From contig CAMTJU010000001.1 of NCBI GenBank assembly GCA_947073045.1, positions 45,783 to 109,782 on the forward strand: a DNA stretch of 64,000 bases, in the 5' to 3' direction. The stretch is from an uncultured Clostridia bacterium (lineage in GTDB: Bacteria > Bacillota > Clostridia > Lachnospirales > CAMVHY01). Position numbers and translations under genes: made by a program. The notes beneath the pieces were generated by a model. The model worked only from the letters and a program-made list of their open reading frames with translations, was not told the origin of the DNA and did not search any database. Of the stretch, positions 26,442 through 44,329 are shown in pieces. How positions within the stretch are numbered: position 1 is the stretch's first letter; every line of letters starts with the position of its first letter.

Positions 26442-26615
26442 ATTAGACAATCTTTTTGCCAAAAAATAATTTAAAAAATTTTGCTATTGATAATATGTGA
26501 CATAATTCATTCTTTTGCAGATAAATTTTAACACAAAAAATAGCCCCATTTTATTAAATTTTTCATTTAACAATTTGAGATCATTTCAATTAATTAGTTT
26601 ATTTTTGGCTTATTG

Positions 26616-26781: not shown

Positions 26782-27087
26782 AGCATTATTAAAATTATCG
26801 GCATTAGCTAAACAAAAAAGTTAATGCAATAAAAAAGATGAACGCAAAAAATTGATTCATCTTCTAAAAAATTTTGTTTTTACACCAATTAAATCATTGG
26901 ATTTCGAGAATACAATCATAACATCTGTAAGAGTTTACACAAAAAAAATTAATCCATCTACAATGAAATCAAAAATTGTAAATGGATTATATTTTGCAGA
27001 CAAAATAATTAATATTGATGAGCTTACAGACAGTTTGAATTTATAAATTACATTTTCTACAGATTATTAGATGGAAAAAATGCTTAA
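26782..27087 (+). pseudogene. Decayed 3' fragment of the flavoprotein gene (copy matching 15601..15913)
   Basis: The track ORF 26852..27046 translates to MIHLLKNFVFTPIKSLDFENTIITSVRVYTKKINPSTMKSKIVNGLYFADKIINIDELTDSLNL. This matches 48 of 64 residues of the intact C-terminus, and almost all differences are GC-to-AT changes. Confidence 0.8.
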
Positions 27088-30000
27088 TTATTTATTTTTG
27101 GACTTTTTTGTTTTATTTGACTCATTTTTTATTTTTCTTTGTCCTTTTTCGACTTTTTTTAATGGTCTGTTCACTCCATTTTTTTGTTCTTGGGCAACTT
27201 TTTTCATTGGAGATAATGAAGATGATGAAGAGAAATCTCCATATGTAACGTTAAGACTATCATTTTCATCGTATCCTTTAGCTTGTTCATAAATATCTGA
27301 ATTACTTACTCCTACACCTAATATATCATTTAATATATCATTTTTACAAAGAATTCTTTTTTCACCATCTGCTTTTTTTGCAGGTTTAGAATTATCTTTA
27401 TAACTTCCTGATAAACTATCAACAGTATTACTTGATGAATAATTTTCCTCTAAAAAAACTTCTGACTCTATTTTTTCTTGTTGTTCACTTAAATTATTTT
27501 CTTTTTCTGAATTTTCAAGAGTATCTATTTCTTCATGATAACTGCTATAATCTGCTTGATCCTCAACGTCACTATTTTTACTATCATCATTCTCTAGAGA
27601 AATATTACTAATATCTTCTGAATTATCTCCAACTTGAGAATCACCATTTTTATTATTAACGCTATCATTTGAATAACTTGATGACCCTGAATAATAACTT
27701 GATGAATAATAATTGGAACCTTTATCTAAATTATTTTCTACATTTCCAAAATTATTATTATTATTGTTATCCTCTAAAGAAGATTCTGACCTTACTCTTT
27801 CTTGGTTATTATGCGAATTTTCGCCAGCGACCCTTGGTATAGGTTTTAAAACTTTAATTTGATTGTGTAAACCACCGTATTTAGCGTATAATTTAGTATT
27901 TCTATCTTTATCACTATCGTCAGCACTATATTCAACTTCACTTTCAATCAAGTCACTAATATCCGATGGAAACTCTCCATTATTATACAATTGAGAAATC
28001 TTATATATATCATCCATATAAACTTTACGAACGTAATTATCACCAGCCGGCAATTTTAATACTTCATTTACTCTATTCATTAAATGGCCTGTTGGATCAT
28101 TTTGAGCAATTTTAAATACAAGTTGAATTAACTCCCACTCCCTATCCTTACTTATATTTAAATCCAATACATCATTTAAGTTTGAGGCCAAAATATTAGA
28201 AATTTGAATTAATTTTTCCTTAGACAAATCTTTTCTATCTATTAAACTATTAAGCGTCTGATTAAATAATTTATCAAAATTTTCTTGTTTTTTAGTCAAA
28301 TCATCAACTTGTTGCTTCAAAAGTTGTTCTTTTCGTTTTTTTCTTCGTCTTGTACTTGGCAAAATCGCAGTTTGTCCAATTTTGTCTAATGATTCTTTTG
28401 CGTTTTTTAATTCATTTTCGTATTTTTTATGTTGCTCATAAAATACATCAAGCAAATTATGACTATCATTAATTATATCAGAAATTCTCCACAATTCTTG
28501 CCGTTCTTTAGTTGAAATATAATTCTCTGGATTAATTAAGCGATTGAATATATCTAGTTTTACACCGTTATATCTATCTGTCAGATAATTAATTGCATGC
28601 GATATACTAACAGCAATGTTATTTTCAGTATTAATTATTTCATTAATAAAATCTTCTTTTGTTTCTTCAACTTCAAGTGAATTCTTACGTAATCTATAAC
28701 GAGTTAGCCGACTAACTTTTTCTGTTTCTTTAGGTTGTTCTTTAAGTAAATTTTTAAGTAATTCATAATAATCTTGTTCAACTTCATTTAATGCACCATT
28801 ATTACTAGACCGCTTTTTTTCTAATTTTTTTATTTCTTCTTCTATTTCTTTTTCTTCTTTTTCTATTGCTTCTTTTATTTTTTCAAGCTCATTTTGTTTT
28901 GTTTTTTTATCTTTAAGTGAATTAAAATGAGCTGAACTAAGCACTATATTGAGTACAGGTGAAATATTTGGATAATATAAATAAATATCAGATATATTAA
29001 TATTATCTCGCAAATAAATCATACGTTTAAGATACTCTTGACCAGTTGAATCTTCAAGATAACCAGATAGGCGTTCATTTATGTTGATTTTTTGATTGCC
29101 TAATGAATCCACCATCTCTATATCTTTAGATCCAGGTTTTTGATAGATTAAACCATTTGAACCATTTAAACTTATATACCCTAACTTTTTCTCTTGATAC
29201 ATCATCTCTACTGAAATATCTGATACTAAAATCATTTGCATAATTTTTCGCAAATTTTCTTGTCTTTGTTTACCATCAGGATACTTTTGGGGATCTGTTA
29301 GAACCAACATTTTTTTTAGATTTGGTTCATCAATTGTATATATTAAATCAAGTATTCTAAACTTTTCATCTTTTGACAAACTTTTGTAATAGTCACTCTG
29401 CACAAATTTATTCATCAGTGTATTAACATCTTTTCTAGTTGGCATTTGATTAAAAGAAACATAACTTAAATATTGATTCTCAAAAAATAAATAATACTTT
29501 TGTAATTCACTTTTTAAATTTTGATAATTAACTAAATCTCCTTCATTTAATTCTTGATTGCCCAATTCATTAAATCTATTTAAAACACGTTGGAGAATTT
29601 GCATCAAAGCTAATATATCATTAATATTTTTACACATAGGAATATTGTTATAATTAGGATTTAAAAAACGATCTTCGCCATTTACTTTTATATGCAAATG
29701 CGGCAATATTCCTTTCTTTACCATCGATAATACTTGATCTAAACTTTTATTTTCAAAAGATATTTCATCTGAATTTAATTTATTCCAAAATTCTGTATCC
29801 AATTTGTCACAATATTGAATGCTTTCAAAATTTCGAAAACCTCTTTTAATAACTTCTCTTGCTTCAACTGAAGGTCCATTTTTTAATAAGTTCAACACAT
29901 TGTTTAATTCTTCTTTATCGCTTGGATCCATAATAATACCTTCAAATTCATATTTATGAAGAACTTCTTTGATATTATTAATACAATATTTTTTACCTTT

Positions 30001-30327
30001 ATGTTCAAAAACATAAAATTGATTAAATTCATTTGGAACAAAATCGTTATCTACTGGTACAATATCACTTATGTGAACGTTCATTATATAACCTAATTTA
30101 TGCAAAGCAGCATAATGCAAAAATATATCTTGCATACTTTTTTTATATTCATAATCCACTTCTGGACTTAGTGTAAGTAGATTATTAGAAAATTTCATAA
30201 TGTTACTCAAATAATTATATATAACCGTCGGACTTAAACGTTCTGCTAACTCTTTGTCACCTTGTGTCATTTTTTCTAACATTCTATTAACTTCTTTCCA
30301 TCTTCCATTATCTATAACTCCTTCCAT
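27088..30327 (-). CDS. Large paralog D (1079 aa), same uncharacterised family, long S/N/D/E-rich tail
   Basis: N-terminus MEGVIDNGRWKEVNRMLEKMTQGDKELAERLS. Conserved blocks present, an extra E/K-rich coiled-coil-like insert (KEKEIEEEIKKLEKK), and a C-terminal ~250-aa low-complexity acidic/Ser-Asn region ending in a basic tail. Confidence 0.8.
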   Translation of the reverse strand: MEGVIDNGRWKEVNRMLEKMTQGDKELAERLSPTVIYNYLSNIMKFSNNLLTLSPEVDYEYKKSMQDIFLHYAALHKLGYIMNVHISDIVPVDNDFVPNEFNQFYVFEHKGKKYCINNIKEVLHKYEFEGIIMDPSDKEELNNVLNLLKNGPSVEAREVIKRGFRNFESIQYCDKLDTEFWNKLNSDEISFENKSLDQVLSMVKKGILPHLHIKVNGEDRFLNPNYNNIPMCKNINDILALMQILQRVLNRFNELGNQELNEGDLVNYQNLKSELQKYYLFFENQYLSYVSFNQMPTRKDVNTLMNKFVQSDYYKSLSKDEKFRILDLIYTIDEPNLKKMLVLTDPQKYPDGKQRQENLRKIMQMILVSDISVEMMYQEKKLGYISLNGSNGLIYQKPGSKDIEMVDSLGNQKININERLSGYLEDSTGQEYLKRMIYLRDNINISDIYLYYPNISPVLNIVLSSAHFNSLKDKKTKQNELEKIKEAIEKEEKEIEEEIKKLEKKRSSNNGALNEVEQDYYELLKNLLKEQPKETEKVSRLTRYRLRKNSLEVEETKEDFINEIINTENNIAVSISHAINYLTDRYNGVKLDIFNRLINPENYISTKERQELWRISDIINDSHNLLDVFYEQHKKYENELKNAKESLDKIGQTAILPSTRRRKKRKEQLLKQQVDDLTKKQENFDKLFNQTLNSLIDRKDLSKEKLIQISNILASNLNDVLDLNISKDREWELIQLVFKIAQNDPTGHLMNRVNEVLKLPAGDNYVRKVYMDDIYKISQLYNNGEFPSDISDLIESEVEYSADDSDKDRNTKLYAKYGGLHNQIKVLKPIPRVAGENSHNNQERVRSESSLEDNNNNNNFGNVENNLDKGSNYYSSSYYSGSSSYSNDSVNNKNGDSQVGDNSEDISNISLENDDSKNSDVEDQADYSSYHEEIDTLENSEKENNLSEQQEKIESEVFLEENYSSSNTVDSLSGSYKDNSKPAKKADGEKRILCKNDILNDILGVGVSNSDIYEQAKGYDENDSLNVTYGDFSSSSSLSPMKKVAQEQKNGVNRPLKKVEKGQRKIKNESNKTKKSKNK

Positions 30328-30393
30328 TGAAATCTCCCCCTTTTTATAACTTCGCTACAAATTCAGAAATAAGTAAATAAGTATTGATACTTA

Positions 30394-30422
30394 ATTATAT
30401 CATTATTAATTGACAAATTCAA
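30394..30422 (-). promoter_or_regulatory. Sigma-A-type promoter of paralog D
   Basis: TTGAAT (30422..30417), 17 nt, TGATATAAT (-10 at 30399..30394). Confidence 0.5.
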
Positions 30423-30510
30423 ATTAAACAATCTTTTTGCTAAAAAGTAACTAAAAAAATTTTGCTATTGATAATATGTGACATAATTCATTTATTTGTG
30501 CACAAATTTT

Positions 30511-30567
30511 AACACAAAAAATGACCCCATTTTATTAAATTTTTCATTTAATAATTTGAGGTCATTT
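30511..30567 (-). terminator. Terminator of the Cys-terminated protein gene
   Basis: Long imperfect hairpin (~22-bp stem) followed by a T-run on the minus strand, about 30 nt after the stop at 30597. Confidence 0.6.
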
Positions 30568-30596
30568 CAATTAATTAGATTAATTTTGGCTTATTG

Positions 30597-31493
30597 TTAA
30601 TTGTTGCATCCGCAATCATTATTATTTGTGTTTACGCCAGCAACATGTGTACTTGGGATATTTGAACTAATACCGGCTAAAAATTCAGGTTTTTGAGGCG
30701 GCGCAAATACATCCATTGGGAAATCTAAGCTTTCAAAGAAATCACATGGGTTAAGTGGTGAAATATCTTCGCATTCTTTTGGTATACAGAATCCTCTTGA
30801 TTCTACATTAAGATTTACAAGTCTGTAAAGTTTTATGATAGTAAATAAACCAATTGTTACATTTACACGGTTTGGTTCCGGAGGAAGGTCCTCAACTGAT
30901 GAACATCTTCTTTGTAATCTTAATTCAGCTGATAGTGCAACAGCTTTTGCTTCTACAAAAATAAATGGTTCTGCACGAAGAGTAGTTGAATCGTTAGTGC
31001 TGCATTTAAATAAATCGGTAGCAATAACTAAATCTGAGCCAATTGATCCAAACAATGTAACTTTTTTATTAAAAATACTGTTTGCACATACAGGCGAACT
31101 TATTGGAGTTCCGTCAGCTTCTCTGAAAGTCAATCTGTATTGGAAAACATATTTCAAATCTACATCCCAAAAACCATTTTTAAATGGGTTAGGACATTTA
31201 TCAACAATAATGACTTTTTTTACAAATAAATTATCTATAGTAACAGCAGCTGCGTTAGAAGGCGGGTCAATTATCTCTCCTTCTTGTATGCATTCATCTC
31301 CGATTACAGTTTTTTTAGCAGCTCTTGCCGGCCCAATTTCATTTGCCGTTAAACAATCTTGTTGTCTGCATGAATCATAAACTTTAAATGCAATAATGCA
31401 TTCTTCTTTCACTCTTCTGTTATCAACATTTTCACCAGCAACATTTTCATTACATCCACAATCTGTATTGTTGTTAAATTCAAACGCACTCAT
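30597..31493 (-). CDS. Hypothetical 298-aa protein with mirrored DCGCN termini
   Basis: RBS AAAGGAGGA 8 nt before the ATG. N-terminus MSAFEFNNNTDCGCNEN.., C-terminus ..NTNNNDCGCNN. 12 Cys in total, a beta-rich-looking body, no signal peptide or TM helix. I cannot place it in a named family. Confidence 0.75.
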   Translation of the reverse strand: MSAFEFNNNTDCGCNENVAGENVDNRRVKEECIIAFKVYDSCRQQDCLTANEIGPARAAKKTVIGDECIQEGEIIDPPSNAAAVTIDNLFVKKVIIVDKCPNPFKNGFWDVDLKYVFQYRLTFREADGTPISSPVCANSIFNKKVTLFGSIGSDLVIATDLFKCSTNDSTTLRAEPFIFVEAKAVALSAELRLQRRCSSVEDLPPEPNRVNVTIGLFTIIKLYRLVNLNVESRGFCIPKECEDISPLNPCDFFESLDFPMDVFAPPQKPEFLAGISSNIPSTHVAGVNTNNNDCGCNN

Positions 31494-31611
31494 TATTAAA
31501 TCCTCCTTTATAATTTAAAACTATATCTCCCCCTTAATTTTGATATATGTACAAATAAATTTTTTGTGACTTAATTTGTTCTTTAAAAAAGTAACTTCAT
31601 AAAAAGAAACC

Positions 31612-31641
31612 AAAAAAATCAGGCATAGCCTGATTTTTTTT
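31612..31641. terminator. Terminator hairpin (second copy of the two-hairpin module)
   Basis: AAAAAAATCAGGC-ATA-GCCTGATTTTTTTTT, nearly the same sequence as 229..262. Confidence 0.55.
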
Positions 31642-31654
31642 TATTAAAGTTCTT

Positions 31655-31686
31655 TTACTTCTTTTCTTTCAAGAAAAGAAGAAGAT
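31655..31686 (-). terminator. Hairpin immediately after the MscS-like gene stop (module part 2)
   Basis: CTTCTTTTCTT-TCAA-GAAAAGAAGAAG. Same position and style as 273..309. Confidence 0.4.
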
Positions 31687-31701
31687 TTTGATTTTAAGAT
31701 T

Positions 31702-32217
31702 CTATAAAGTTTTTCTGCTCTTGTTAGTTACAATTTTAATCTCGCCGTTGGGAATTATGTAAACATCGCCATTTGCAGCTCGAAGAGTTGTTGTGCACAT
31801 GGTAATTGATTCTACAGTTCCTGCCTTGTTTGCAATGATAACTTTGTCTCCAACTTCAAACTGATTTTCAAACAATATAAAAATTCCTGTAATAAAATCC
31901 TTGATTAGACTTTGGGCAGCTAATCCTACTGTAATACTACCAATACCTGCGACAGTTAAAATTGATTTCATGTCAATACCTAAAACATTAAAAAACATGC
32001 AGATTATAACAAAAAAGATTATATATTTAATTATGCTGTTGCATGCAATTTGAAAAGTTTTGTACTTGCGTGTATCGATTTTTTCTTTGAATTTATCAAA
32101 CAACTTGGAAATAAATTTTTTTGTCAGCAAATACAAAACAATCCCTAAAAAAATTATTGCTGCAGATTCAGCTATGATATTAAAATTCTTGTAAAGAAAT
32201 TCAAAACTTTCATTCAT
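31702..32217 (-). CDS. Mechanosensitive ion channel (MscS) family protein, short/C-terminally truncated form
   Basis: TM helices plus the start of the MscS beta domain (GDKVIIANKAGTVESITMCTTTLRAANGDVYIIPNGEI), then a stop. Start set at the ATG at 32217 after GGAGGA. Confidence 0.65.
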   Translation of the reverse strand: MNESFEFLYKNFNIIAESAAIIFLGIVLYLLTKKFISKLFDKFKEKIDTRKYKTFQIACNSIIKYIIFFVIICMFFNVLGIDMKSILTVAGIGSITVGLAAQSLIKDFITGIFILFENQFEVGDKVIIANKAGTVESITMCTTTLRAANGDVYIIPNGEIKIVTNKSRKTL

Positions 32218-32294
32218 AAAAAACAATCCTCCATATACAAAAAATGCAAGCACAATCTGCTTGCATCAATTATAACTAAAATCTGTTTTGTAAA

Positions 32295-32900
32295 CTACCA
32301 ATACTCACCCAAAATTTCAATCGCATTTTTCTTTATAACTACTTCGCCGTGCTCAAATAAGTAAGCTCTTGATATTGGATTTACTATGCACTTTTTCCCA
32401 TACTCGGCAATTATTATATCAAGCTCTGAATCTGTAATTTCATTAAATTTGTCATCATTTCGCATAACCAAAAAATATTTATTATCTTTTTTCAAGAGAC
32501 TGCTTGCGCCGCCAAATCGCCCATACAAAGCTCTAGCTACGAGAGATACATCATTCAAAGTTTTAAATTCATATATATGTAAAAAATCATCGCTCTCAAT
32601 TTTTAAACTGTAGCTTGATTTTTTATTTTTTTTCTTAGTCACTATTTTTTGTTCCTCATCCATTTTTGTTACCAAAATAACAACTGCCTCGAGAGAAACA
32701 GGGATAGCCTCAATCATGAGCTGAGCATCCTCAGCATCAAAGTCATATTCATCAGTTGCTATATTTAAAACTTCTTTAAACAAATCGCGAGTTTTTTCCG
32801 AACCAAAAGCAAGTTCTGCCATTTTTATATTTCTTTCTTGCAAATCATCGTTAGTCAATAAAATTTTCAGTTTGTTTTCATTAATCTTTTCTATCTTCAT
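32295..32900 (-). CDS. mecA: Adapter protein MecA
   Basis: MKIEKINENKLKILLTNDDLQERNIKMAEL.. is a typical MecA N-domain, followed by a C-domain. Start at the ATG at 32900 after GGGGGTGA. Confidence 0.8.
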   Translation of the reverse strand: MKIEKINENKLKILLTNDDLQERNIKMAELAFGSEKTRDLFKEVLNIATDEYDFDAEDAQLMIEAIPVSLEAVVILVTKMDEEQKIVTKKKNKKSSYSLKIESDDFLHIYEFKTLNDVSLVARALYGRFGGASSLLKKDNKYFLVMRNDDKFNEITDSELDIIIAEYGKKCIVNPISRAYLFEHGEVVIKKNAIEILGEYW

Positions 32901-33155
32901 AACTCTCACCCCCGCAAATCACATATATAACAATTATAAAACATAAAAATTAAAAAGTAAATATACAAATTCATCAAAACATTCTTTAATTACAGCTATT
33001 TTAGACCCATTTTTATCAATTTTTAACAAAAATTAAGATACACATATTTTGCAATATTTGCGTAGTATGTGCATCTGTTTACTTTTGTGATATACTCCTG
33101 CCGCCTAAGAGCGAGAATATCTCACTGTATTACAAGTTGAATCAAAATTTTTTGG

Positions 33156-33184
33156 TTGACAAGTTGTTTTTTGTACATTGTAAT
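33156..33184 (+). promoter_or_regulatory. Candidate sigma-A promoter of the RiPP operon
   Basis: TTGACA (33156..33161), 17 nt, TGTAAT (33179..33184), about 90 nt upstream of the precursor ATG. Confidence 0.45.
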
Positions 33185-33277
33185 CAAAAATAATTAGTAA
33201 ATTATTAGCAAAAAAGTATAAAAATGTTGTTATTTACTGTTTTAAAGTATTACAATAAAGAAAGGAGATGAGATAAA

Positions 33278-33415
33278 ATGGAAACTCCAAAGATGAATGC
33301 AGCTCCAATTTGTGTAGGATGTATGGCTTGTGGTGAGTGTATAATTTGCGGACCAACACCATCTGGTACTGAGTGTGCTGCTGTAGCAGTTGGCTTATCA
33401 GCTTTTTACAACTAA
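33278..33415 (+). CDS. Cys-rich RiPP precursor peptide (45 aa), sactipeptide-like
   Basis: Below the 60-aa cutoff of the ORF track, so found by reading the DNA. RBS AAAGGAGA 9 nt upstream. Sequence METPKMNAAPICVGCMACGECIICGPTPSGTECAAVAVGLSAFYN. Lies directly upstream of an RRE-rSAM gene. Confidence 0.7.
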   Translation: METPKMNAAPICVGCMACGECIICGPTPSGTECAAVAVGLSAFYN

Positions 33416-33480
33416 TATATTTTTATTTTAGGGCTACTTTTTATTAAGTGGCCTATATTTATATTTAGAGGTGAATAAAA

Positions 33481-33666
33481 TTGAGTGGTTATTTGTATTT
33501 TGAAGATTGTCTTGAAATACAAACCTATGAAAATAAACAAGAAGGATATTTATTGATAAAACCTAATGGAAAAACAATAAATCGTAAACACATAGGAAAA
33601 AGATATGTATTAAATAAAACTGCAATAGAAATTATATTGCTAATTGATGGTACAAGAACATATTAA
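33481..33666 (+). CDS. PqqD-like RiPP recognition element (RRE), N-terminal half only; ends at an in-frame TAA
   Basis: TTG start after AGAGGTGA. ..RYVLNKTAIEIILLIDGTRTY* matches the beta-strands plus helix 1 of a PqqD/RRE fold. The same frame continues without further stops into 33727..34854. Confidence 0.6.
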   Translation: MSGYLYFEDCLEIQTYENKQEGYLLIKPNGKTINRKHIGKRYVLNKTAIEIILLIDGTRTY

Positions 33667-33726
33667 GATTTAGTAAAAGAATTATCTGTTAAATATGCAG
33701 AATCATATGAAAGTATTAATAATAAG

Positions 33727-34854
33727 GTGAGTGCTTTTTTAAATAGTTTTACAAACAGTTACGAATTAAAAATTTTGGATGGTGAACATCCATTCAACAA
33801 AGCTGTGATTGTAAAAAATAACAAAAATATTTATCCGACTGTAGCTTCATTGGAATTAACGTATAAATGTAATTTGAGATGTCGTCATTGTTATGGAGAA
33901 TACGGTGACGTAAATAAAATAGAGATGGATATAAATAATTTAAAAAAGTTATTGGTTGAGCTAAAAGAATTAGGGATAAGAATAATAGAATTTACAGGCG
34001 GAGATGTTAGCATCTATCCGCACTTTAAAGAAGCTTTGTTGTATGCAATAGACTTAGATTTTGATTTTATATGCATTTTAACGAATGGAATAGCACTAGA
34101 TGATGATATTATAGAAATTATTATTAATAATAAGAACAAAGTTGTTATGCAAATAGATTTACATAGCTTAGATGATAATTATTTAGAGTGGTTTACACAA
34201 GTTCCTAATACTATAGATCGTATAAAAAATATCATAACAAAATTTACGCAAAATGATGTATTAATCCGTATTGCAACTGTTGTAACACCTAAAAATGTTG
34301 ATGAAATAGAGACTATTGCAGATTGGGTGCATAATATTGGTATTAAAACTTATGCTCTTTCTCCAGTTATAAATTTAGGTAGAGCAACTTTTTTAAATGA
34401 CAATTTGTTATTCAATAATAAAGAGCAACTAGCAAAGTTTGAAAAAGTGGTTAATAATATTATGTCTAAATACAGTAATTTTCTAACAGTACGTGAAGAT
34501 GCTGTAAATGAAAGACCAAATTGTGGTAGTTTAACATCTAATGTTACTATAATGCCTGATGGAAATATAAAACACTGTACTATGGATAATTCAAAATATG
34601 CTAATACTAGCATAGGAAATGTATTTGATAAACCTATTAAACAAATATATGATGAAAATACAGACTATATTGAAGCTGTTTTTGCTTTAGAACCTCCAAA
34701 ATATGATTCTATAGAATGTCGCGAATGTGATAAAAAATATTTTTGTGGCAATTGCATTTTGAGAGGATTTATAAGTAGAAAAGACAAAGGAGAAGAATGC
34801 AAATGGTATACAAACAAAGTCCCACAAATAATAAAAGAAAAATTATCGATTTAA
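33727..34854 (+). CDS. Radical SAM/SPASM peptide maturase (sactisynthase-like), lacking its intact N-terminal RRE
   Basis: CNLRCRHC (CxxxCxxC) rSAM cluster. C-terminal SPASM-type Cys motifs (CGSLTSNVTIMPDGNIKHC; CRECDKKYFCGNCILRG). The sequence from 33667 to 33726 (DLVKELSVKYAESYESINNK) completes the RRE when read through. Confidence 0.85.
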   Translation: MSAFLNSFTNSYELKILDGEHPFNKAVIVKNNKNIYPTVASLELTYKCNLRCRHCYGEYGDVNKIEMDINNLKKLLVELKELGIRIIEFTGGDVSIYPHFKEALLYAIDLDFDFICILTNGIALDDDIIEIIINNKNKVVMQIDLHSLDDNYLEWFTQVPNTIDRIKNIITKFTQNDVLIRIATVVTPKNVDEIETIADWVHNIGIKTYALSPVINLGRATFLNDNLLFNNKEQLAKFEKVVNNIMSKYSNFLTVREDAVNERPNCGSLTSNVTIMPDGNIKHCTMDNSKYANTSIGNVFDKPIKQIYDENTDYIEAVFALEPPKYDSIECRECDKKYFCGNCILRGFISRKDKGEECKWYTNKVPQIIKEKLSI

Positions 34855-35519
34855 AAAATATATGTAAAAACTATAATCAAAAAAGTATACTAGACAATGT
34901 TAATTTATCTATACCCGTAAATTCCATATATGCTTTAATAGGACCTAATGGAGCTGGTAAAACTACATTATTAAGAATTATTTTAGGACTTATAGAAAAA
35001 AGCTCAGGTAAAGTAGAAAATCATTTTAGTAATAATGATATATCGGCATTGTTGGAGAATGATTACTTATTTCAGAATAAAACAGGTCAAAATAATATTA
35101 ATGATTTTGCGAAATATTTTTCGATTGATATCAGTAAAAATAAGAAACTAATTGATGAGTATATAACATGTTTAGGTTTGCAAAATGATTTAAATAAAAT
35201 GGTTCAATATTATTCAAAAGGTATGAAAAGAAAGTTATCTATATTAATAACTTTAATACGAAATACAAGCTTTCTAGTTTTAGATGAACCAACTTCAGGA
35301 GTTGATCCTCAATCTAGAATAGAAATACGTAAATTATTTAGCTTGTTAAAGAATCAAAATAAAACTATATTAGTAACATCACATGACTTAGCAGAAATAA
35401 CAAAAGTAAGCGATTATATATCTGTAATAAAATCTGGACAAATTATTGATACTTTTAAAAATGATTCTGATATTGATTTGGAAAAGAAGTTTTTTGAAGT
35501 AATTAATGGAGGAATCTGA
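34797..35519 (+). CDS. ABC transporter ATP-binding protein (RiPP export/immunity)
   Basis: Walker A GPNGAGKTT, signature YSKGMKRKLS, Walker B FLVLDEPTSGVD. The start is ambiguous (ATG 34797 or 34803) and overlaps the rSAM 3' end. Confidence 0.8.
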   Translation: MQMVYKQSPTNNKRKIIDLKNICKNYNQKSILDNVNLSIPVNSIYALIGPNGAGKTTLLRIILGLIEKSSGKVENHFSNNDISALLENDYLFQNKTGQNNINDFAKYFSIDISKNKKLIDEYITCLGLQNDLNKMVQYYSKGMKRKLSILITLIRNTSFLVLDEPTSGVDPQSRIEIRKLFSLLKNQNKTILVTSHDLAEITKVSDYISVIKSGQIIDTFKNDSDIDLEKKFFEVINGGI

Positions 35520-35521
35520 AT

Positions 35522-36253
35522 ATGAATATTAAAAATATAATTTCAGTGGCAGTGTTTGACCAAATTAAAGATAAGGGATTTTTGTATTCTTTCTTTGTAA
35601 ATTTGATATTGAATATTTCTATCTTTTTATTTATTTCGTTGAGTAATGATTATGAAGGAATGCTTTCAAGCATTATGATCTTATTTTTTGTAATCATTAA
35701 TATATCAATTTATCAACTTATCACAAATGTTGTTTTATATAATATATCCATTAACGAAAAAATTTCATCGCGTTTGGAATTTTATTTAGCTAATAAAATT
35801 CCTTTAAATGATATTTTAAATGCCTATTCAATTTCAACATTTATTTTAAGCAGCTTAAGCACCATATCATTTACATTGGTAATTCTATTAATGACATTAA
35901 TTTTTAAATTGCAAAATTTTGTGCAAATCTTTTGGAACTTAGATTTTGTTGCTATTTTTCTAGTACTATTAATATTTTTTTATTTAGTAGCTCAATTACT
36001 AAACATATTTGTATTTATATCAAAAAAAATATCAACTATAAGAATGCTTATTGCGCATTCTTCATTATTTGTTTTATTGTTAGGTGTATTTGGTTCAAAA
36101 TACATGATAAAATCAGCAATGTATTTTAATATTTCTTTTAATCTAGCTATAACGATAACTTTACTTGGATTGTCATTAGTCATTTTGTTTTTTGTTATTG
36201 CGCTAAAATGTAATTGTACAAAAGAAAAAATAGTATTATCAACTAAGGAATAA
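35522..36253 (+). CDS. ABC-2-type transporter permease
   Basis: 243-aa ORF, very hydrophobic with about 6 TM helices, starting 3 nt after the ATPase stop. Confidence 0.7.
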   Translation: MNIKNIISVAVFDQIKDKGFLYSFFVNLILNISIFLFISLSNDYEGMLSSIMILFFVIINISIYQLITNVVLYNISINEKISSRLEFYLANKIPLNDILNAYSISTFILSSLSTISFTLVILLMTLIFKLQNFVQIFWNLDFVAIFLVLLIFFYLVAQLLNIFVFISKKISTIRMLIAHSSLFVLLLGVFGSKYMIKSAMYFNISFNLAITITLLGLSLVILFFVIALKCNCTKEKIVLSTKE

Positions 36254-36301
36254 ACATAAATAAATTGTAGTATTAATATAAAAAAATTTATAAGGCAGTA
36301 T

Positions 36302-36335
36302 AAAAAGTGACTCAAAAAAAATTGAGTCACTTTTT
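36302..36335. terminator. Bidirectional terminator between the RiPP operon and rnhA
   Basis: Perfect inverted repeat AAAAAGTGACTCAA-AAAAAA-TTGAGTCACTTTTT. Confidence 0.7.
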
Positions 36336-36392
36336 ATGTTTCAATAAAAATCCCAAACTGGAGACACTCCAATTCAAATTTTTGAAAAATAA

Positions 36393-36854
36393 TTAAACAT
36401 AATTTTTGTCTATTTTTAAATCACCTGTTTTTATAAATTGGCGTGCTAAATAATCACAGCGCTCATTTTCTTTATTATCATTATGGCCCTTAACCCAAAT
36501 AAAATTCACATTATGTATAGCGAGCAATTTTAAAAGTTCCTGCCATAAATCAATATTGGAAGCTTTTTGCGATTTTGTGCGATACCAATTATTTTTTTCC
36601 CACTTGTCTATCCAGCCTTTTTTTATTGCATCAATTACATATTTTGAATCTGAATACAAATTCACATTGCAAGGCTGCTTTAAAAATTTAAGAGCCTCAA
36701 TCACAGCAATTATCTCCATGCGGTTATTGGTAGTCAATTTAAAACCGCCAGATAATTCACGCCTAACATCATTATAAATAATGACAATCCCAAATCCACC
36801 CGGACCAGGATTGCCAGAACATGCACCATCCGTATAAATAGTAACAGTTTTCAT
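36393..36854 (-). CDS. rnhA: Ribonuclease HI
   Basis: 153-aa ORF with IYTDGACSGNPGPGGFG and the conserved D/E/D catalytic context. Confidence 0.9.
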   Translation of the reverse strand: MKTVTIYTDGACSGNPGPGGFGIVIIYNDVRRELSGGFKLTTNNRMEIIAVIEALKFLKQPCNVNLYSDSKYVIDAIKKGWIDKWEKNNWYRTKSQKASNIDLWQELLKLLAIHNVNFIWVKGHNDNKENERCDYLARQFIKTGDLKIDKNYV

Positions 36855-36862
36855 TTTCTCAC

Positions 36863-37765
36863 CTATTTTGAAAATAAAGCTTGTGCAAAAACTTTTGCAT
36901 CAAACTCCTCGATATCATCAATTTTTTCACCAATACCGACATACCTTACCGGTATTTTTAATTCATCTGCAATAGGAATGACAATACCGCCTTTGGCAGT
37001 ACTATCAAGTTTGGTCAAAATTATTCCTGTAATGTTCGTAGCTTCGTTAAATAATTTTACTTGCTGCAAACCATTTTGTCCCGTAGTCGCATCAATAGAA
37101 ATAAAAACCTCAAGATGCGCCTGTGGGTATTCCTCATTTATTATTTTAAAAATTTTTTTGAGTTCGTTCATTAAATTAATTTTGTTATGCAAGCGTCCTG
37201 CTGTATCACAAATTAAAATATCAGTTTTGTGAGCCTTTGCACTATGCACTGCATCAAAAATAACTGCGCCAGGGTCTGCATTTTCTTTATGTTTTATCAT
37301 TGGAACATTTATTTTTTTAGCCCACACTTCTAATTGGTCAATAGCAGCAGCTCTAAAAGTATCGGCGGCCGCCAGCATAACTTTCTTGTTTTGATTTTTA
37401 AACATATTTGCTAATTTCCCAATTGAAGTAGTTTTGCCAGTTCCGTTGACACCAATTACAAGAATTACGCATGGAAATTGCAAAATAAAATCAGAATTAT
37501 TTTCTTCCAAAATAGTTCTGATTTCATCAATAAAAATTTGTTTAATTTGCTCAGGTTCCTTTTTCTTTATAGACTTTTCCTTAACGGATTCTACAATTTT
37601 TTGTGAAGTTGCAACACCAATATCTGACGTAATTAATATTTCTTCTAGTTCGTCAAACAATTCTTCATCAACTTTTTTAAAACGACTGAATAAATCGTCG
37701 AGTCTACCTAAAAAATTCTCACGGGTTTTATTAATTCCCGATAAAAATTTTTCAAACAATCCCAT
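36863..37765 (-). CDS. ftsY: Signal recognition particle receptor FtsY
   Basis: 300-aa ORF with an SRP GTPase NG domain: GVNGTGKTTSIGKLA, DTAGRLHNK, TKLDSTAKGG. Confidence 0.9.
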   Translation of the reverse strand: MGLFEKFLSGINKTRENFLGRLDDLFSRFKKVDEELFDELEEILITSDIGVATSQKIVESVKEKSIKKKEPEQIKQIFIDEIRTILEENNSDFILQFPCVILVIGVNGTGKTTSIGKLANMFKNQNKKVMLAAADTFRAAAIDQLEVWAKKINVPMIKHKENADPGAVIFDAVHSAKAHKTDILICDTAGRLHNKINLMNELKKIFKIINEEYPQAHLEVFISIDATTGQNGLQQVKLFNEATNITGIILTKLDSTAKGGIVIPIADELKIPVRYVGIGEKIDDIEEFDAKVFAQALFSK

Positions 37766-37780
37766 TTTCTATCATCCTCA

Positions 37781-38407
37781 TTATTTTGTACCAAAGAGTC
37801 TGTCTCCTGCATCGCCAAGTCCAGGAATTATATATCCATGATCATTTAAACCTTTATCATGTTCAGCAGTATAAATATCTACGTCTGGATGCTCTTTATT
37901 AACTTTTGCTACACCTTTTGGAGTTGACAAAAGACAGAGCAATTTTATATCTTTCACACCGCGATCTTTCAAAAATTTTATTGCTGCTGATGCAGTTCCA
38001 CCCGTTGCAAGCATAGGATCAGTCAAGAAAATTTCACGATCTTTACTGTCTACAGGCAATTTGCAATAGTATTCAACTGGTTTCAAAGTTTCTGGATCAC
38101 GATACAAACCAATATGCCCAACTTTAGCATTGGGAATAAATCGCAAAATACCATTTGTCATACCAATTCCTGCACGTAAAATAGGTACAATACCAAATTT
38201 TTTTTCTGTTACTTGAGCAACTGTTTTGCCCAAAGGAGTTTCAATATTAACATTTGTTAATGGAACATCTCTTGTTGCTTCATAACAAATTAAAGTTGCA
38301 ATTTCATCTACCAATTCACGAAATTCTTTATTACCTGTATTTTTGTTTCGAAGCATTGAAATTTTATTTTTAATTAACGGGTGATCCAAAATTATAAGCT
38401 TTGACAT
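37781..38407 (-). CDS. upp: Uracil phosphoribosyltransferase
   Basis: 208-aa ORF with the PRPP-binding motif [13 protein letters not shown] and C-terminal [17 protein letters not shown]. Confidence 0.9.
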
Positions 38408-38421
38408 AATAAAACTCCTTT

Positions 38422-38850
38422 CTAATTTTCAATTTGATTTATACGAGCTATATGCTTTTGTTCATTTGAAAACGGCGTAGACAAAAATGTTTTTACAATA
38501 TCTATTGCCAAACCGCTTCCTATAACTCTTGCTCCCATTGCTAAAATATTTGCATCATTATGCTCACGAGTTGCATGTGCAGAAAATGTATCCGAACAAA
38601 GTGCGGCACGTATCCCTTTGAATTTATTAGCACTAATTGAAATACCTATTCCTGTTCCACAAATAAGTATACCCTTTTGGCTTTCACCATTCAATATTGA
38701 ATTTGCCACAAGCTTTGCAAAAACAGGATAATCACATGAATCATAAGAATTAGTACCAAAATCCTTATAAGCTATATCGTTTGCATCAAGATATTTTATA
38801 ATCTCTTTTTTTAAATCTAAACCGGCATGGTCACAACCAAGCGCAATCAT
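38422..38850 (-). CDS. rpiB: Ribose-5-phosphate isomerase B
   Basis: 142-aa ORF of the RpiB/LacA/LacB family: [16 protein letters not shown]. Confidence 0.9.
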
Positions 38851-39311
38851 TTTTTATCCCCTCCTTTATTAAAATTCATAGCAATAATATTTATAAGTGA
38901 AAAGATTTGATCGGCGCATTTTTTATAAATTTCGAAATCTGCTCCAAATGGATCAATTATATCATAATTGTCGTTACATGCAAATTCAGACAAAGTAAAT
39001 ATTTTTCCTTTTGCTTGATCGAACTTGTTGCAAAGAAACTTTTTGTGTGCATCGGTCATAGTAAGAATAAAATCATTTTCATCAATAATCTCTTTTGTAA
39101 TTTGTTTTGATTTATGATTTGAAATATCTATGTCATAATTTTTCATTGCGAGTATAGAATTTTGTGAAGCGCTATCAAAAGGGTTTGCTCCAATTCCTGC
39201 AGAACTTACTTGCGCTTTTATGTTCATGTCTTTAAATATTTTTTGAGCTAATGCCTGAGCCATTGGACTTCTGCAAGTATTACCTGTGCAAACAAACAAA
39301 ATCTTCATCAA
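38847..39311 (-). CDS. Low-molecular-weight protein phosphatase (YwlE-like)
   Basis: CX5R P-loop VCTGNTCRSPMA and a DP motif. Sits in the ywlC-ywlE-ywlF(rpiB)-upp context known from Bacillus. Confidence 0.8.
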   Translation of the reverse strand: MMKILFVCTGNTCRSPMAQALAQKIFKDMNIKAQVSSAGIGANPFDSASQNSILAMKNYDIDISNHKSKQITKEIIDENDFILTMTDAHKKFLCNKFDQAKGKIFTLSEFACNDNYDIIDPFGADFEIYKKCADQIFSLINIIAMNFNKGGDKK

Positions 39312-39314
39312 AAA

Positions 39315-40346
39315 TCACACCCTTATAATTTTATAATCAGCTGCTTTTTGTAATCTGTTCATAATTGCAAAACCAATATCATTTTGAGGAAAACTTTCGG
39401 CATAAATAATTTCTATATCATTTAAATCAAACTCGCGCAATATGGAAAATAAATTTTCAGCAACATCTAAGAGATTATTTCTATTGCCTGCAGATAAAAC
39501 TAAACAATTATTGTACAAATTTTTAGTTTGATCACTTGCAAGCACACCAATTTTTTTGTTTTCACTTTGCAAAATCAATTCATTAATTTTAGCAGACATA
39601 TTTTCCAAATTTCCACTTACAATAATAACTTCTGCCTTTGGAGAATAATGCTTATATTTCATACCAGGAGCTTTTGGATGTTCATTGTCGTTTAGCAAAT
39701 TATCAGCAACAATCACATCCCCTATGCAATCTTTTAACATTTCTAAAGTAACAGCACCAGGTCGAAGCATCACTGGTATTTCTAATGTCATATCTATTAT
39801 AGTTGATTCGAGTCCAAAAGAAAATTCTTTTTCACTTTCTTCATAAATAATCATATCAATTTTGCCATCCAAATCATTTATAACATGTGAAAAATGAGTG
39901 CAGCTTGGTTTCCCAGAAACATTTGCACTCGGAGCAGCAATTGGTAAATTTGCTGCATTAATTAATTTTTGGGCTAAACTGTTTGCAGGGAATCTTACGG
40001 CTATTGTATCTAAGGCACCCGATGTTTCATAGGGTATGTAATCTTTTTTATTTAAAATAATAGTAAGCGGGCCTGGCCAAAATTTTTTCGTTAATTCAAT
40101 AGCTTTTGCACTTATGTCTTTTGCTATCTCATTTAAATAATTTAATTGGGCAATGTGAACTATAAGAGGATTGTCTGATGGACGACCCTTTGCCAAATAA
40201 ATTTTTTTTACTGCTTTTGCATTAAGTGCGTCAGCTCCAAGACCGTATACAGTTTCTGTAGGAAATGCAACAAGCCCACCTGATTTTAAAATTTGTGCTG
40301 CTTTTTGAATTGACTGCCCATTTGCTTTTTCTATTAGCGTTTTCAT
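39315..40346 (-). CDS. tsaC: L-threonylcarbamoyladenylate synthase (Sua5/YwlC type)
   Basis: 343-aa ORF with a YrdC domain (VAFPTETVYGLGADA) plus a Sua5 C-terminal domain. Confidence 0.85.
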   Translation of the reverse strand: MKTLIEKANGQSIQKAAQILKSGGLVAFPTETVYGLGADALNAKAVKKIYLAKGRPSDNPLIVHIAQLNYLNEIAKDISAKAIELTKKFWPGPLTIILNKKDYIPYETSGALDTIAVRFPANSLAQKLINAANLPIAAPSANVSGKPSCTHFSHVINDLDGKIDMIIYEESEKEFSFGLESTIIDMTLEIPVMLRPGAVTLEMLKDCIGDVIVADNLLNDNEHPKAPGMKYKHYSPKAEVIIVSGNLENMSAKINELILQSENKKIGVLASDQTKNLYNNCLVLSAGNRNNLLDVAENLFSILREFDLNDIEIIYAESFPQNDIGFAIMNRLQKAADYKIIRV

Positions 40347-40441
40347 TTTGCATATCCTTTCTCAAATATATTATAATTCGAATTATAAGTCATGAGCTAA
40401 ACAAAAACAATTAATTTCAAAATGGAAGGATTGAAAAAATT

Positions 40442-40963
40442 ATGGAAGAGCAAGAAAAAAGGCAAGAAATTTATTCAGGCAAAATAATAAAAGTCTATAA
40501 AGACACGGTTAAATTACCCAATGGAAATTTCTCAAGCCGTGAAATTGTTTTGCATAATGAATGCAGTGCTGTTTTGGCAATTCAAGATGAAAAAATAATT
40601 TTTGTTCGGCAATATCGTTATCCAATAAAAAATTATTCTTTGGAGATACCTGCAGGAATTATGGATGATGGAGAAAGTCCAGAAGATTGTGCCAAACGTG
40701 AGCTTGAAGAAGAAACGGGATTAATTGCACAAAATTTAGATTTGCTTTTCAAGCTTCATTCATCTATTGGATTTTGTAATGAACTTATAAATGTGTATAT
40801 AGCCAAAGGTTTAGCAATTGGCAAACAAAATTTTGATGAAGATGAATTCATTACGCTTGAAAAATATTCATTAGATCAAGCTTTAAAAATGATAAAAGAA
40901 TATAAAATTACCGATGCAAAAACTATAGCTGCTATTTTTGCCTATAGTGCATCTTGCAAATAA
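40442..40963 (+). CDS. NUDIX hydrolase (ADP-ribose pyrophosphatase-like)
   Basis: Nudix box GIMDDGESPEDCAKRELEEETGL. Confidence 0.8.
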   Translation: MEEQEKRQEIYSGKIIKVYKDTVKLPNGNFSSREIVLHNECSAVLAIQDEKIIFVRQYRYPIKNYSLEIPAGIMDDGESPEDCAKRELEEETGLIAQNLDLLFKLHSSIGFCNELINVYIAKGLAIGKQNFDEDEFITLEKYSLDQALKMIKEYKITDAKTIAAIFAYSASCK

Positions 40964-41013
40964 TAGTACTTATGTGATAAAATTTTACGAGATAAAAATT
41001 GGAGGTTTTAAGA

Positions 41014-42096: not shown

Positions 42097-42220
42097 AAAA
42101 ATTAGTACAAAAAAAGTAATGTTATTTGTATAATTTTCCTAATATCTATTTGCTTCTTGTAAAAACTATCATTATTTATGCAACATTGAATCTATGAGAA
42201 ATATGAAAACGGTACGTTAA

Positions 42221-42270
42221 AAAAAAGAGCTGGTAAAAATCAATCAAAAGATTTTTATCAGCTCTTTTGT
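42221..42270. terminator. Hairpin terminator in the pfkA-ogt spacer
   Basis: A-run, AAGAGCTGGTAAAAATC / GATTTTTATCAGCTCTT inverted repeat, then TTGTT. Confidence 0.55.
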
Positions 42271-42423
42271 TATTGCAAATCGTATTACTATTTTCCTGAT
42301 ATCTTTGATTTTGCATTAATTACTTACTTCTTAAAGATTTAATTTTTATTGACAAAATAAAGATTATGGCTTTTAAATTTTTTATTGCAACTATCAAAAT
42401 TATCTTAGTTTTGCTTTTTAACT

Positions 42424-44310: not shown

Positions 44311-44329
44311 TATAAATTTACATTAACTA

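What the first reader, a model, noticed from the sequence alone, without database searches (positions are those of the whole stretch)
33156..36335. Compact sactipeptide-like RiPP cluster with an unusual 45-aa, six-Cys precursor
The operon comprises a promoter, the precursor (33278..33415), an RRE-radical SAM/SPASM maturase, an ABC ATPase, an ABC-2 permease and a perfect-stem terminator.

The precursor is METPKMNAAPICVGCMACGECIICGPTPSGTECAAVAVGLSAFYN. It has five Cys at strict i+3 spacing (C12, C15, C18, C21, C24), a Gly/Pro turn (GPTPSG), and a C-terminal half that could supply acceptor residues, plus a sixth Cys (C33).

This is the donor-half/acceptor-half hairpin logic established for thurincin H, where C4/C7/C10/C13 bridge to residues 28/25/22/19. 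Here there would be one more rung and an extra Cys. From memory the thurincin H leader also begins METP, which needs checking.

The leader would be only about 8-10 aa, and no dedicated leader peptidase is encoded in the cluster. The cluster is AT-rich (15-16 G+C per sampled 60-nt line) and inserted between mecA and rnhA.

A weak hairpin sits between the precursor and the maturase (about 33430..33455). It could set their stoichiometry.
Basis: partly seen in the sequence, partly recalled or inferred. Interest (0 to 1): 0.8.

Follow-up and report, generated by a model that had tools for sequence, protein, structure and literature searches.

The report
Broken thurincin-H-type sactipeptide gene cluster
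This is a small inserted gene cluster for a thurincin H-like, thioether-bridged antibacterial peptide with five evenly spaced cysteines, but in this genome a stop codon interrupts the modifying enzyme, so it is a recognisable and probably disabled member of a known family.

Summary
The cluster belongs to the thurincin H (ThnA/ThnB) sactipeptide family. All nine related maturase loci I inspected have a short upstream peptide with an N-terminal Cys ladder at i+3 spacing (4, 5 or 6 Cys). The window's maturase falls in a subclade that pairs 5-6-Cys precursors with the same compact layout: precursor, maturase, overlapping ABC ATPase, six-TM permease. A five-Cys ladder already has a published precedent, estercticin A. 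Short leaders without a cluster peptidase also have one, gnavucin D. In this genome the maturase carries an in-frame TAA at codon 62 (GAA to TAA), inside the peptide-recognition domain. The promoter -10 box reads TGTAAT where the sister lineages read TATAAT. Two sister lineages carry different lesions, and no sampled copy has both precursor and maturase clearly intact. A sister species has rnhA and mecA adjacent, so the cluster is a ~3.4 kb insertion. Verdict: a new member of a known kind, probably non-producing here. Interest is modest.

The parts
33156..33184 (+). Sigma-70-type promoter: TTGACA (33156..33161), 17-nt spacer, TGTAAT (33179..33184). The two sister lineages have TATAAT.
   Evidence: Read. 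Alignments A1 and A4 show the G/A difference at the second base of the -10 box. The consensus scan requires A there and so does not list this site.
33264..33267 (+). Shine-Dalgarno GGAG, 10 nt upstream of the precursor ATG
   Evidence: Sequence. This SD and the ATG fall inside the ~30-bp stretch missing in lineages L005 and L095.
33278..33415 (+). Precursor peptide (45 aa): MxTP-type short leader, five donor Cys at i+3 (C12-C24), GPTPSG turn, and an acceptor half that contains a sixth Cys (C33)
   Evidence: The exact sequence occurs on 15 public contigs. Homologous ladder peptides sit upstream of related maturases.
33431..33454 (+). Intergenic stem-loop (9 bp, 4 G-C pairs, 6-nt loop) followed by a weak U-rich tract. 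Candidate partial terminator or mRNA stabiliser that could set the precursor:enzyme ratio.
   Evidence: z -2.7. Identical in L005 and retained in L095.
33481..34854 (+). ThnB-family RRE/radical SAM/SPASM sactisynthase gene, interrupted by an in-frame TAA at 33664..33666 (codon 62, GAA to TAA). TTG start preceded by GAGGTG.
   Evidence: The intact allele P0068 has E at codon 62. It is 47% identical to ThnB. The AF2 model places codon 62 at the start of RRE helix 2. Foldseek top hits are SkfB, SuiB and CteB.
33664..33666 (+). Premature stop codon (TAA) within the RRE domain of the maturase
   Evidence: Present in independent assemblies from ENA, Logan, JGI and NCBI (19 contigs).
34797..35519 (+). 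ABC transporter ATP-binding protein (238-240 aa). Its start overlaps the maturase 3' end by about 52-58 nt.
   Evidence: Pfam ABC_tran 3e-25. Best NCBIfam match is the lantibiotic-protection ABC ATPase TIGR03740, below its cutoff. It is 46-59% identical to the equivalent gene in L090, L092, L104 and L106, and 30% identical to the ABC ATPase of the thurincin H cluster.
35522..36253 (+). Six-TM membrane partner (243 aa) of the ABC ATPase. No Pfam or NCBIfam family.
   Evidence: It is 28-33% identical to the equivalent gene in related compact clusters. No similarity to the ABC-2 permease of the thurincin H cluster.
36299..36338 (+). Intrinsic terminator: 17-bp perfect stem with A-run and T-run flanks, so possibly bidirectional
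   Evidence: dG -20.5 kcal/mol, z -6.3. Inverted repeat I2.

Best explanation
The region is a ~3.4-kb insertion into the rnhA-mecA intergenic region of an unnamed low-G+C spore-forming Clostridia species. It carries a compact four-gene sactipeptide (sactibiotic) module of the thurincin H/ThnB family.

Intended mechanism, inferred from the family:
1. The 45-aa precursor is bound through its short MxTP leader by the N-terminal RRE of the maturase.
2. The radical SAM/SPASM enzyme then links the sulfurs of the evenly spaced Cys residues (C12, C15, C18, C21, C24) to alpha-carbons in the C-terminal half. This gives a nested hairpin with up to five rungs.
3. The ABC ATPase and six-TM permease export the product and/or protect the producer.
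4. The leader is removed by a protease encoded elsewhere.

In this genome the module is most likely not producing. The maturase has a nonsense codon at position 62, inside the RRE. The -10 box has lost its conserved second-position A. Sister lineages carry different lesions. The ABC pair is intact in all three lineages and may persist as an immunity function; that last point is inference.
For: Family assignment:
- Pfam finds PqqD, Radical_SAM and SPASM. The best NCBIfam match is AlbA over the full length.
- The intact allele P0068 is 47% identical, at 100% coverage and E 6e-151, to the rSAM in the thurincin H cluster of pBMB422. That cluster has three 40-aa precursors, an S8 peptidase, GntR and ABC genes.
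- The thurincin H precursor read from that plasmid is METPVVQPRDWTCWSCLVCAACSVELLNLVTAATGASTAS.
- Ladder precursors lie upstream of homologous maturases in L086, L089 and L093 (4 Cys), L092 and L104 (5 Cys), L106 (5+1 Cys), and L090 and L091 (6 Cys).
- An NJ tree groups the window's maturase with the 5-6-Cys clade. The ABC ATPase and permease are conserved partners in that clade.
- The structural model has pLDDT 87.5. Its best PDB matches are the RiPP maturases SkfB, SuiB and CteB.

Inactivation:
- The in-frame TAA occurs on 19 contigs from independent sources.
- It falls at the start of RRE helix 2, and the downstream 375-aa ORF begins inside helix 3.
- ThnB lacking its RRE cleaves SAM but forms no thioether (Wieckowski 2015, as summarised in PMC8172795).
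- L005 has an intact maturase but lacks the precursor's SD, ATG and METPK. L095 has the same deletion plus precursor G14*, a maturase frameshift at codon 61/62, and C366Y at an invariant SPASM Cys.

Insertion:
- In the sister species rnhA and mecA are adjacent (A5).
- The cluster has lower G+C and opposite strand and skew compared with its flanks.
Against: pN/pS of the maturase between lineages is 0.10-0.15, the same as for the ABC genes. The enzyme was therefore under purifying selection until recently. This holds even between L005 and L095, which share the precursor 5' deletion. So the lesions are young, or the L005-type allele is still used through the alternative 53-aa ORF P0072.

Low-level readthrough of TAA, or assembly of the two maturase fragments in trans, cannot be excluded from sequence.

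The crosslink chemistry, the number of rungs and the immunity role of the ABC pair are inferred, not shown. Pairwise precursor similarity to thurincin H is weak (E 0.02).
Confidence: 0.72

Rival explanations
1. The cluster is functional in this genome. Either the TAA is read through at a useful rate, or the 61-aa N-terminal fragment and a re-initiated catalytic fragment work together, so the sactipeptide is still made.
For: The precursor with its strong SD, the ABC genes and both terminators are intact. The maturase shows a purifying-selection signature, pN/pS about 0.10. Discrete RRE proteins exist in other RiPP systems (general knowledge).
Against: The break lies inside the winged-helix RRE, between helices 1 and 2, not between domains. 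The GTG at 33727 has no separate SD, and the next in-frame ATG lies after the CxxxCxxC motif. RRE-less ThnB is inactive for crosslinking (PMC8172795). The -10 box is weakened. TAA is an efficient stop (general knowledge).
Confidence: 0.12
2. The family assignment is right but the product differs from a five-rung nested hairpin. Only three or four Cys form sactionine bridges, and the remaining Cys, including C33, form a disulfide or stay free.
For: Estercticin A, the published five-Cys ladder peptide, was detected by HRMS with three crosslinks (PMC8792950). SKF combines one thioether with a disulfide (PMC8172795). In one simple register copied from thurincin H (first donor bridging to the residue three from the C-terminus), C33 would itself be an acceptor position (my inference). 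The length of the C-terminal half does not scale strictly with Cys number across the family (sequences).
Against: All five ladder Cys keep strict i+3 spacing. The 21 residues after the last Cys leave room for five acceptors at 3-residue spacing. A register C24-T31, C21-A34, C18-A37, C15-L40, C12-F43 puts GPTPSG exactly in the loop (inference from the sequence). The four ladder Cys shared by all nine aligned precursors are invariant.
Confidence: 0.4
3. The radical SAM enzyme is not a sactisynthase. It would instead be a ranthipeptide, SCIFF or other SPASM maturase, or a non-RiPP SPASM enzyme, and the small ORF would be incidental.
For: Weak sub-threshold NCBIfam hits to NirJ2, PqqE, PapB and SCIFF maturase models.
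Against: All these hits are far below their cutoffs and far below the ThnB match (426 bits, 47% identity). The small ORF is conserved in position, leader and Cys ladder next to homologues. Thurincin H is an NMR-defined sactipeptide (PMC8172795).
Confidence: 0.04

Closest known systems
Thurincin H (= thuricin 17) cluster thnP-E-D-R-A1A2A3-B-T-I of Bacillus thuringiensis
   Same: The maturase is 47% identical to ThnB over its full length, with the same RRE/rSAM/SPASM layout. The precursor has the same METP start, a leader of about 9 aa, an N-terminal Cys ladder at i+3 and an acceptor half. An ABC ATPase is present (30% identity).
   Different: Five ladder Cys plus a sixth in the acceptor half, instead of four. 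A longer Gly/Pro loop. A single precursor gene instead of three. No S8 peptidase, GntR regulator, ThnT-type exporter or ThnI. The permease is unrelated to ThnE. The cluster is a chromosomal insertion in a Clostridia species rather than on a Bacillus megaplasmid. The maturase is interrupted.
Estercticin A (Clostridium estertheticum CF004; Wambui et al. 2022, PMC8792950)
   Same: A clostridial, thurincin H-like sactipeptide. Its core ELNCWACLGCVGCAACVFTLALASAMSALTGSNR has five Cys at strict i+3 spacing.
   Different: Plasmid-borne, with proteases and more accessory genes. No sixth Cys and no GPTPSG loop. Only weak pairwise similarity.
Gnavucin D (Mediterraneibacter gnavus HB038; PMC13239113)
   Same: A thurincin H-like sactipeptide from an anaerobic Firmicute, in a compact cluster, with a 9-aa leader and no leader peptidase in the cluster.
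   Different: It shows four crosslinks by mass, has five tandem precursor genes, and has a response regulator and a ThnT-like exporter.
Uncharacterised compact ThnB-like clusters from metagenomes (L090, L091, L092, L104, L106)
   Same: Same gene order: precursor, maturase, overlapping ABC ATPase, six-TM permease. Maturases are 44-55% identical, ABC ATPases 46-59% and permeases 28-33%. Precursors have 5-6 Cys at i+3.
   Different: Their genes are intact. Some have two precursor copies or a second permease paralogue. None has a Cys in the acceptor half or the GPTPSG loop.
Subtilosin A / AlbA
   Same: AlbA is the best NCBIfam model for the maturase, matched over its full length (1.5e-43). Subtilosin A is also a hairpin sactipeptide.
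   Different: The score of 148.9 is far below the 850-bit equivalog cutoff. Subtilosin is head-to-tail cyclised, has three bridges and does not have an i+3 ladder.

Membership tests
Sactipeptide cluster, thurincin H / ThnB family | Radical SAM core with a CxxxCxxC cluster motif | tested here: met
   Pfam Radical_SAM 1.8e-22. C130, C134 and C137 are invariant in the 37-sequence alignment A2.
Sactipeptide cluster, thurincin H / ThnB family | C-terminal SPASM domain with Cys ligands for auxiliary Fe-S clusters | tested here: met
   Pfam SPASM 4.3e-6. C348, C366, C413, C416, C422, C425 and C440 are invariant in A2.
Sactipeptide cluster, thurincin H / ThnB family | Intact N-terminal RRE (PqqD-like domain) fused to the enzyme, which ThnB requires for crosslinking | tested here: not met
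   The domain is encoded (PqqD 2.3e-6; winged-helix fold in the AF2 model). In the window it is cut by TAA at codon 62. It is intact only in the sister allele P0068.
Sactipeptide cluster, thurincin H / ThnB family | Full-length sequence homology of the maturase to ThnB | tested here: met
   47% identity, 459 aligned positions, E 6e-151, against the rSAM next to three thurincin H genes on pBMB422.
Sactipeptide cluster, thurincin H / ThnB family | Precursor directly upstream with a short leader, N-terminal donor Cys at i+3 and a C-terminal acceptor half | tested here: met
   The same pattern occurs at the nine homologous loci inspected. One deviation: a sixth Cys (C33) lies in the acceptor half.
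Sactipeptide cluster, thurincin H / ThnB family | Cys sulfur to alpha-carbon thioether bridges in the product | not testable with these tools
   Needs MS/MS and NMR after co-expression with the intact allele.
Sactipeptide cluster, thurincin H / ThnB family | Thurincin H accessory set (ThnP peptidase, ThnR regulator, ThnT exporter, ThnI, ThnD/E) | tested here: not met
   Only an ABC ATPase (30% to the ThnD-like gene) and an unrelated permease are present. No peptidase, regulator or ThnT-type gene lies between mecA and rnhA.
Subtilosin maturase AlbA (NCBIfam NF012164 equivalog) | Score at or above the curated cutoff of 850 bits | tested here: not met
   148.9 bits.
SCIFF maturase (TIGR03974) and PapB ranthipeptide maturase (NF047865) | Score at or above the curated cutoffs (425 and 340 bits) | tested here: not met
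   51.4 and 65.9 bits.

The most novel reading that the evidence does not exclude
The ThnB-like subclade that contains this maturase may install five or six nested sactionine bridges. That would exceed every characterised sactipeptide, none of which has more than four. The window's peptide would be a five-rung ladder whose acceptor arm also carries a Cys (C33). That Cys could itself be an acceptor, an extra donor or a free thiol. The natural 4/5/6-Cys series, together with the intact allele P0068, would let one test how a sactisynthase sets rung number and register.
Probability: 0.3. Interest if true: 0.55.

Novelty: new member of a known kind. Interest (0 to 1): 0.3.

Why it matters
If the peptide is made by the repaired or sister allele, it would add a five-bridge member to the small set of structurally defined sactipeptides. 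It would also provide a compact four-gene module that is easy to reconstitute. The comparison of 4-, 5- and 6-Cys precursors served by related ThnB-like enzymes gives a way to ask how these enzymes choose acceptor positions.

The locus also shows a bacteriocin cluster caught while being lost. Three lineages of one species carry different lesions in the precursor or the maturase, while the transporter genes stay intact. That pattern fits retention of immunity after loss of production. None of this changes what is known about the class.

Tried and rejected
2. The two metagenome-contig scans found nothing or only chance hits. One used an invariant 39-nt stretch of the precursor. The other used a back-translated permease motif.
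3. Organism identification failed. Exact look-ups of four housekeeping proteins were not in the collection. An FtsY search found only unnamed relatives at 99%, 82% and 75% or less, and the first named hit is about 61% identical (Tyzzerella).
4. NCBIfam has no HMM that hits even thurincin H itself, so no profile membership test was possible for the precursor.
5. phmmer of the precursor against 1.84 billion representatives found only itself plus Cys-rich repeat proteins.
6. PADLOC hits to the ABC ATPase are generic P-loop matches, so a defence-system reading was rejected.
7. No flanking direct or inverted repeats suggest a mobile element.
8. Rfam found no RNA family anywhere in the window.
9. 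I considered recoding or selenocysteine at the stop and rejected it. The codon is TAA, and the sister allele has plain GAA.
Full report
**Observation**

The 45-aa ORF at 33278..33415 (+) reads METPKMNAAPICVGCMACGECIICGPTPSGTECAAVAVGLSAFYN. It has Cys at 12, 15, 18, 21 and 24 (strict i+3 spacing) and at 33, and GPTPSG at 25-30. A GGAG lies 10 nt upstream. It is the only credible CxxCxxCxxC ORF in any frame of the window.

Downstream in one frame (33481..34854) lies a PqqD/Radical_SAM/SPASM protein. It contains an in-frame TAA at 33664..33666, so ORF callers report 61 aa plus 375 aa. An ABC ATPase (34797..35519) overlaps the maturase end. A 243-aa protein with about six hydrophobic segments follows at 35522..36253.

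A 17-bp perfect-stem terminator lies at 36299..36338 (dG -20.5 kcal/mol, z -6.3). A 9-bp hairpin lies between precursor and maturase at 33431..33454 (z -2.7).

G+C is 0.22-0.28 in the cluster against 0.30-0.35 in the flanks, with inverted GC skew.

**What it is**

NCBIfam's best model for the repaired maturase is AlbA over its full length (1.5e-43). The score of 148.9 bits is far below the 850-bit equivalog cutoff. SkfB, PapB and SCIFF models score much lower.

A tblastn search of the intact sister allele against plasmids found about 47% identity at 100% coverage on Bacillus cereus-group megaplasmids. On pBMB422 of B. thuringiensis kurstaki YBT-1520 the hit lies in the classical thurincin H (= thuricin 17) cluster. 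That cluster has an S8 peptidase, an ABC-2 permease, an ABC ATPase, GntR, three 40-aa precursor genes, the rSAM/SPASM gene, an ABC exporter and a small hypothetical gene. The pairwise alignment shows 215/459 identities, E 6e-151.

The precursor translated from that plasmid is METPVVQPRDWTCWSCLVCAACSVELLNLVTAATGASTAS. The review PMC8172795 gives the bridges as C4-S28, C7-T25, C10-T22 and C13-N19, with a 31-residue core from a 40-aa precursor.

An AlphaFold model of the intact allele (pLDDT 87.5) best matches the RiPP maturases SkfB, SuiB and CteB (by sequence).

**Conservation of the small ORF**

The protein search found about 50 clusters of maturases at 35-55% identity. I inspected nine related loci, and each has a short ladder peptide just upstream:

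| Locus | Maturase | Precursor | Ladder Cys |
|---|---|---|---|
| L089 (Clostridium sp. DL1XJH146) | P0005 | MGTPEIEQDSITCWACLVCATCVTNGFTLLSALTGLNTAE | 4 |
| L086 | P0004 | MNTPEVEPNGITCWGCLACAACGTTGLTLISALSGLNTAE | 4 |
| L093 | P0037 | 42-aa ladder peptide | 4 |
| L092 | P0007 | MMEPQMSPAGWECIACAGCAGCILCGGGALAIGGLALSSVNFF | 5 |
| L104 | P0013 | MKAPIIALGNDGCIACAGCSTCAMCLTSPVAAMGMGGLLSVWTFF | 5 |
| L106 | P0017 | MGTPVMSLYDDRCAGCASCCACDACGAFVQILFINTENTALVTLFHN | 5 + 1 |
| L090 | P0003 | MMNLYGDSCATCSLCQGCAACVLC... | 6 |
| L091 | P0002 | two copies, for example MNTPVMKAYGSSCAGCSVCSGCAACVLC... | 6 |
| L096 (B. thuringiensis pBMB422) | ThnB | METPVVQPRDWTCWSCLVCAACSVELLNLVTAATGASTAS (three copies; thurincin H) | 4 |

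Sources.

A rough NJ tree places the window's maturase with the 5-6-Cys group. ThnB falls with the 4-Cys group (no bootstrap support was computed).

The 5-6-Cys clusters I could read through (L090, L092, L104, L106) share the window's compact layout. Their ABC ATPases are 46-59% identical to the window's, and their permeases are 28-33% identical.

A profile of the precursors retrieved about 34 peptide clusters. Most are 4-Cys peptides that NCBI names thuricin 17. A few have 5 or 6 Cys. The window's peptide was found only in its own species.

The rSAM does not cluster with non-RiPP enzymes, and the small ORF is conserved.

**Comparison with the literature**

A five-Cys i+3 ladder has a published clostridial precedent. 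Estercticin A has the core ELNCWACLGCVGCAACVFTLALASAMSALTGSNR. It was described as thurincin H-like and detected by HRMS with three crosslinks (PMC8792950).

A 9-aa leader with no peptidase in a compact cluster is reported for gnavucin D (PMC13239113).

A text search found no sactipeptide with five or six mapped sactionine bridges. The 'six thioether' hits concern PapB ranthipeptides. By my own knowledge, characterised sactipeptides have at most four bridges.

**Functional state in this genome**

The TAA replaces GAA (Glu62) of the intact allele P0068. It is present on 19 contigs from ENA, Logan, JGI and NCBI, so it is not a read error.

In the model the RRE comprises strands 4-7, 10-16, 22-27 and 41-44 and helices 46-54, 61-72 and 76-94. 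The stop falls at the start of helix 2, and the 375-aa ORF starts at residue 83, inside helix 3. The GTG start of that ORF has no separate SD, and the next in-frame Met lies beyond the CxxxCxxC motif. ThnB without its RRE still cleaves SAM but forms no thioether (PMC8172795).

The -10 hexamer is TGTAAT in the window lineage but TATAAT in both sister lineages. The lost A is the most conserved -10 position (general knowledge).

**Population picture**

Three lineages of the same species (FtsY 99% identical) carry the cluster at the same site:

| Lineage | Precursor | Maturase |
|---|---|---|
| Window | intact | nonsense at codon 62 |
| L005 (10 samples) | ~30-bp deletion removes SD, ATG and METPK, and M6 becomes I. 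A 53-aa alternative ORF without an SD remains (P0072). | intact |
| L095 | same deletion, plus G14 to stop | 1-nt deletion at codon 61/62, plus C366Y at an invariant SPASM Cys |

Sources.

No sampled copy has both genes clearly intact. The ABC genes are intact in all three.

Maturase pN/pS is nevertheless 0.10-0.15, similar to the ABC genes (0.05-0.16). The lesions are therefore recent, or the L005 form is still in use.

The precursor differs from L005 by six non-synonymous and no synonymous changes. This differs from the maturase's 7 non-synonymous and 17 synonymous changes (Fisher p = 0.003). It indicates relaxed or diversifying evolution of the core peptide.

**Origin**

In a sister species (FtsY 82% identical), ftsY, rnhA, mecA, mscS and csxA are contiguous. 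rnhA and mecA are separated by only about 26-55 nt. The ~3.4 kb between the mecA promoter and the rnhA stop in the window is therefore an insertion. This fits its lower G+C and opposite orientation. No flanking repeats were found.

**Mechanism**

The gene content, homologies and lesions are shown directly. The following are inferred from the family:
- Leader binding by the RRE.
- Radical hydrogen abstraction at acceptor alpha-carbons and S-C-alpha bond formation from the ladder Cys.
- Export and/or immunity by the ABC pair.
- Leader removal by a protease encoded elsewhere.
- A role for the hairpin at 33431..33454 in keeping precursor mRNA in excess.

One register places GPTPSG exactly in the loop: C24-T31, C21-A34, C18-A37, C15-L40, C12-F43. 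This is my speculation. The thurincin H register, in which the first donor bridges to the residue three from the C-terminus, would make C33 an acceptor.

**Verdict**

This is a correct identification of a thurincin H-type sactipeptide module. It is a new member of a known kind, sitting in a so far uncharacterised 5-6-Cys compact subclade. In this genome it is most likely a recently disabled copy. Interest is modest (0.3). The most novel reading that remains open is that this subclade builds ladders of five or six bridges.

Noticed in passing
window 15914..30327 (- strand): Four tandem paralogous ORFs of 980-1078 aa (15914..18859, 19562..22702, 23352..26345, 27088..30327). They are 37-54% identical to one another and match no Pfam family at E <= 0.001.
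   Followed up: partly
L090 59..238; L091 about 147..335 and 350..520; proteins P0205, P0212: Precursors with six Cys at strict i+3 spacing (for example MNTPVMKAYGSSCAGCSVCSGCAACVLCPGVSATLAVAATGASALWDI) lie next to intact ThnB-like maturases. L091 has two tandem copies. If all six Cys are used, these would be six-rung sactipeptides, which have not been described.
   Followed up: partly
window 35522..36253 versus L005 and L095: The permease gene has about 2-3 times the synonymous divergence of its neighbours between lineages (pS 0.21-0.23 against 0.06-0.10). This suggests allelic exchange or recombination at this gene.
   Followed up: no
L095 (maturase codon 366; precursor codon 14): Beyond its frameshift, this lineage has C366Y at an invariant SPASM cysteine and a TGA in the precursor. 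Several independent hits are what one expects from continuing decay.
   Followed up: yes
L097 14795..15145 (sister species): A Lactococcin_972-family bacteriocin gene lies a few kb from the homologous mecA/csxA region in the sister species that lacks the sactipeptide insertion.
   Followed up: no
window 1..64000: The Rfam gathering-threshold search found no RNA family (no tRNA, rRNA, riboswitch or T-box) in the whole 64-kb window. The organism could not be named. The closest named FtsY is only about 61% identical (Tyzzerella sp.).
   Followed up: partly
window 36352..36378 (- strand) and 32933..32961 (- strand): The insertion separated mecA from rnhA. An rnhA-side terminator (12-bp stem) and a mecA promoter-like site (TTTACT, 17 nt, TATAAT) now flank the insert. 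The promoter-like motif is also present in the short rnhA-mecA spacer of the sister species.
   Followed up: partly
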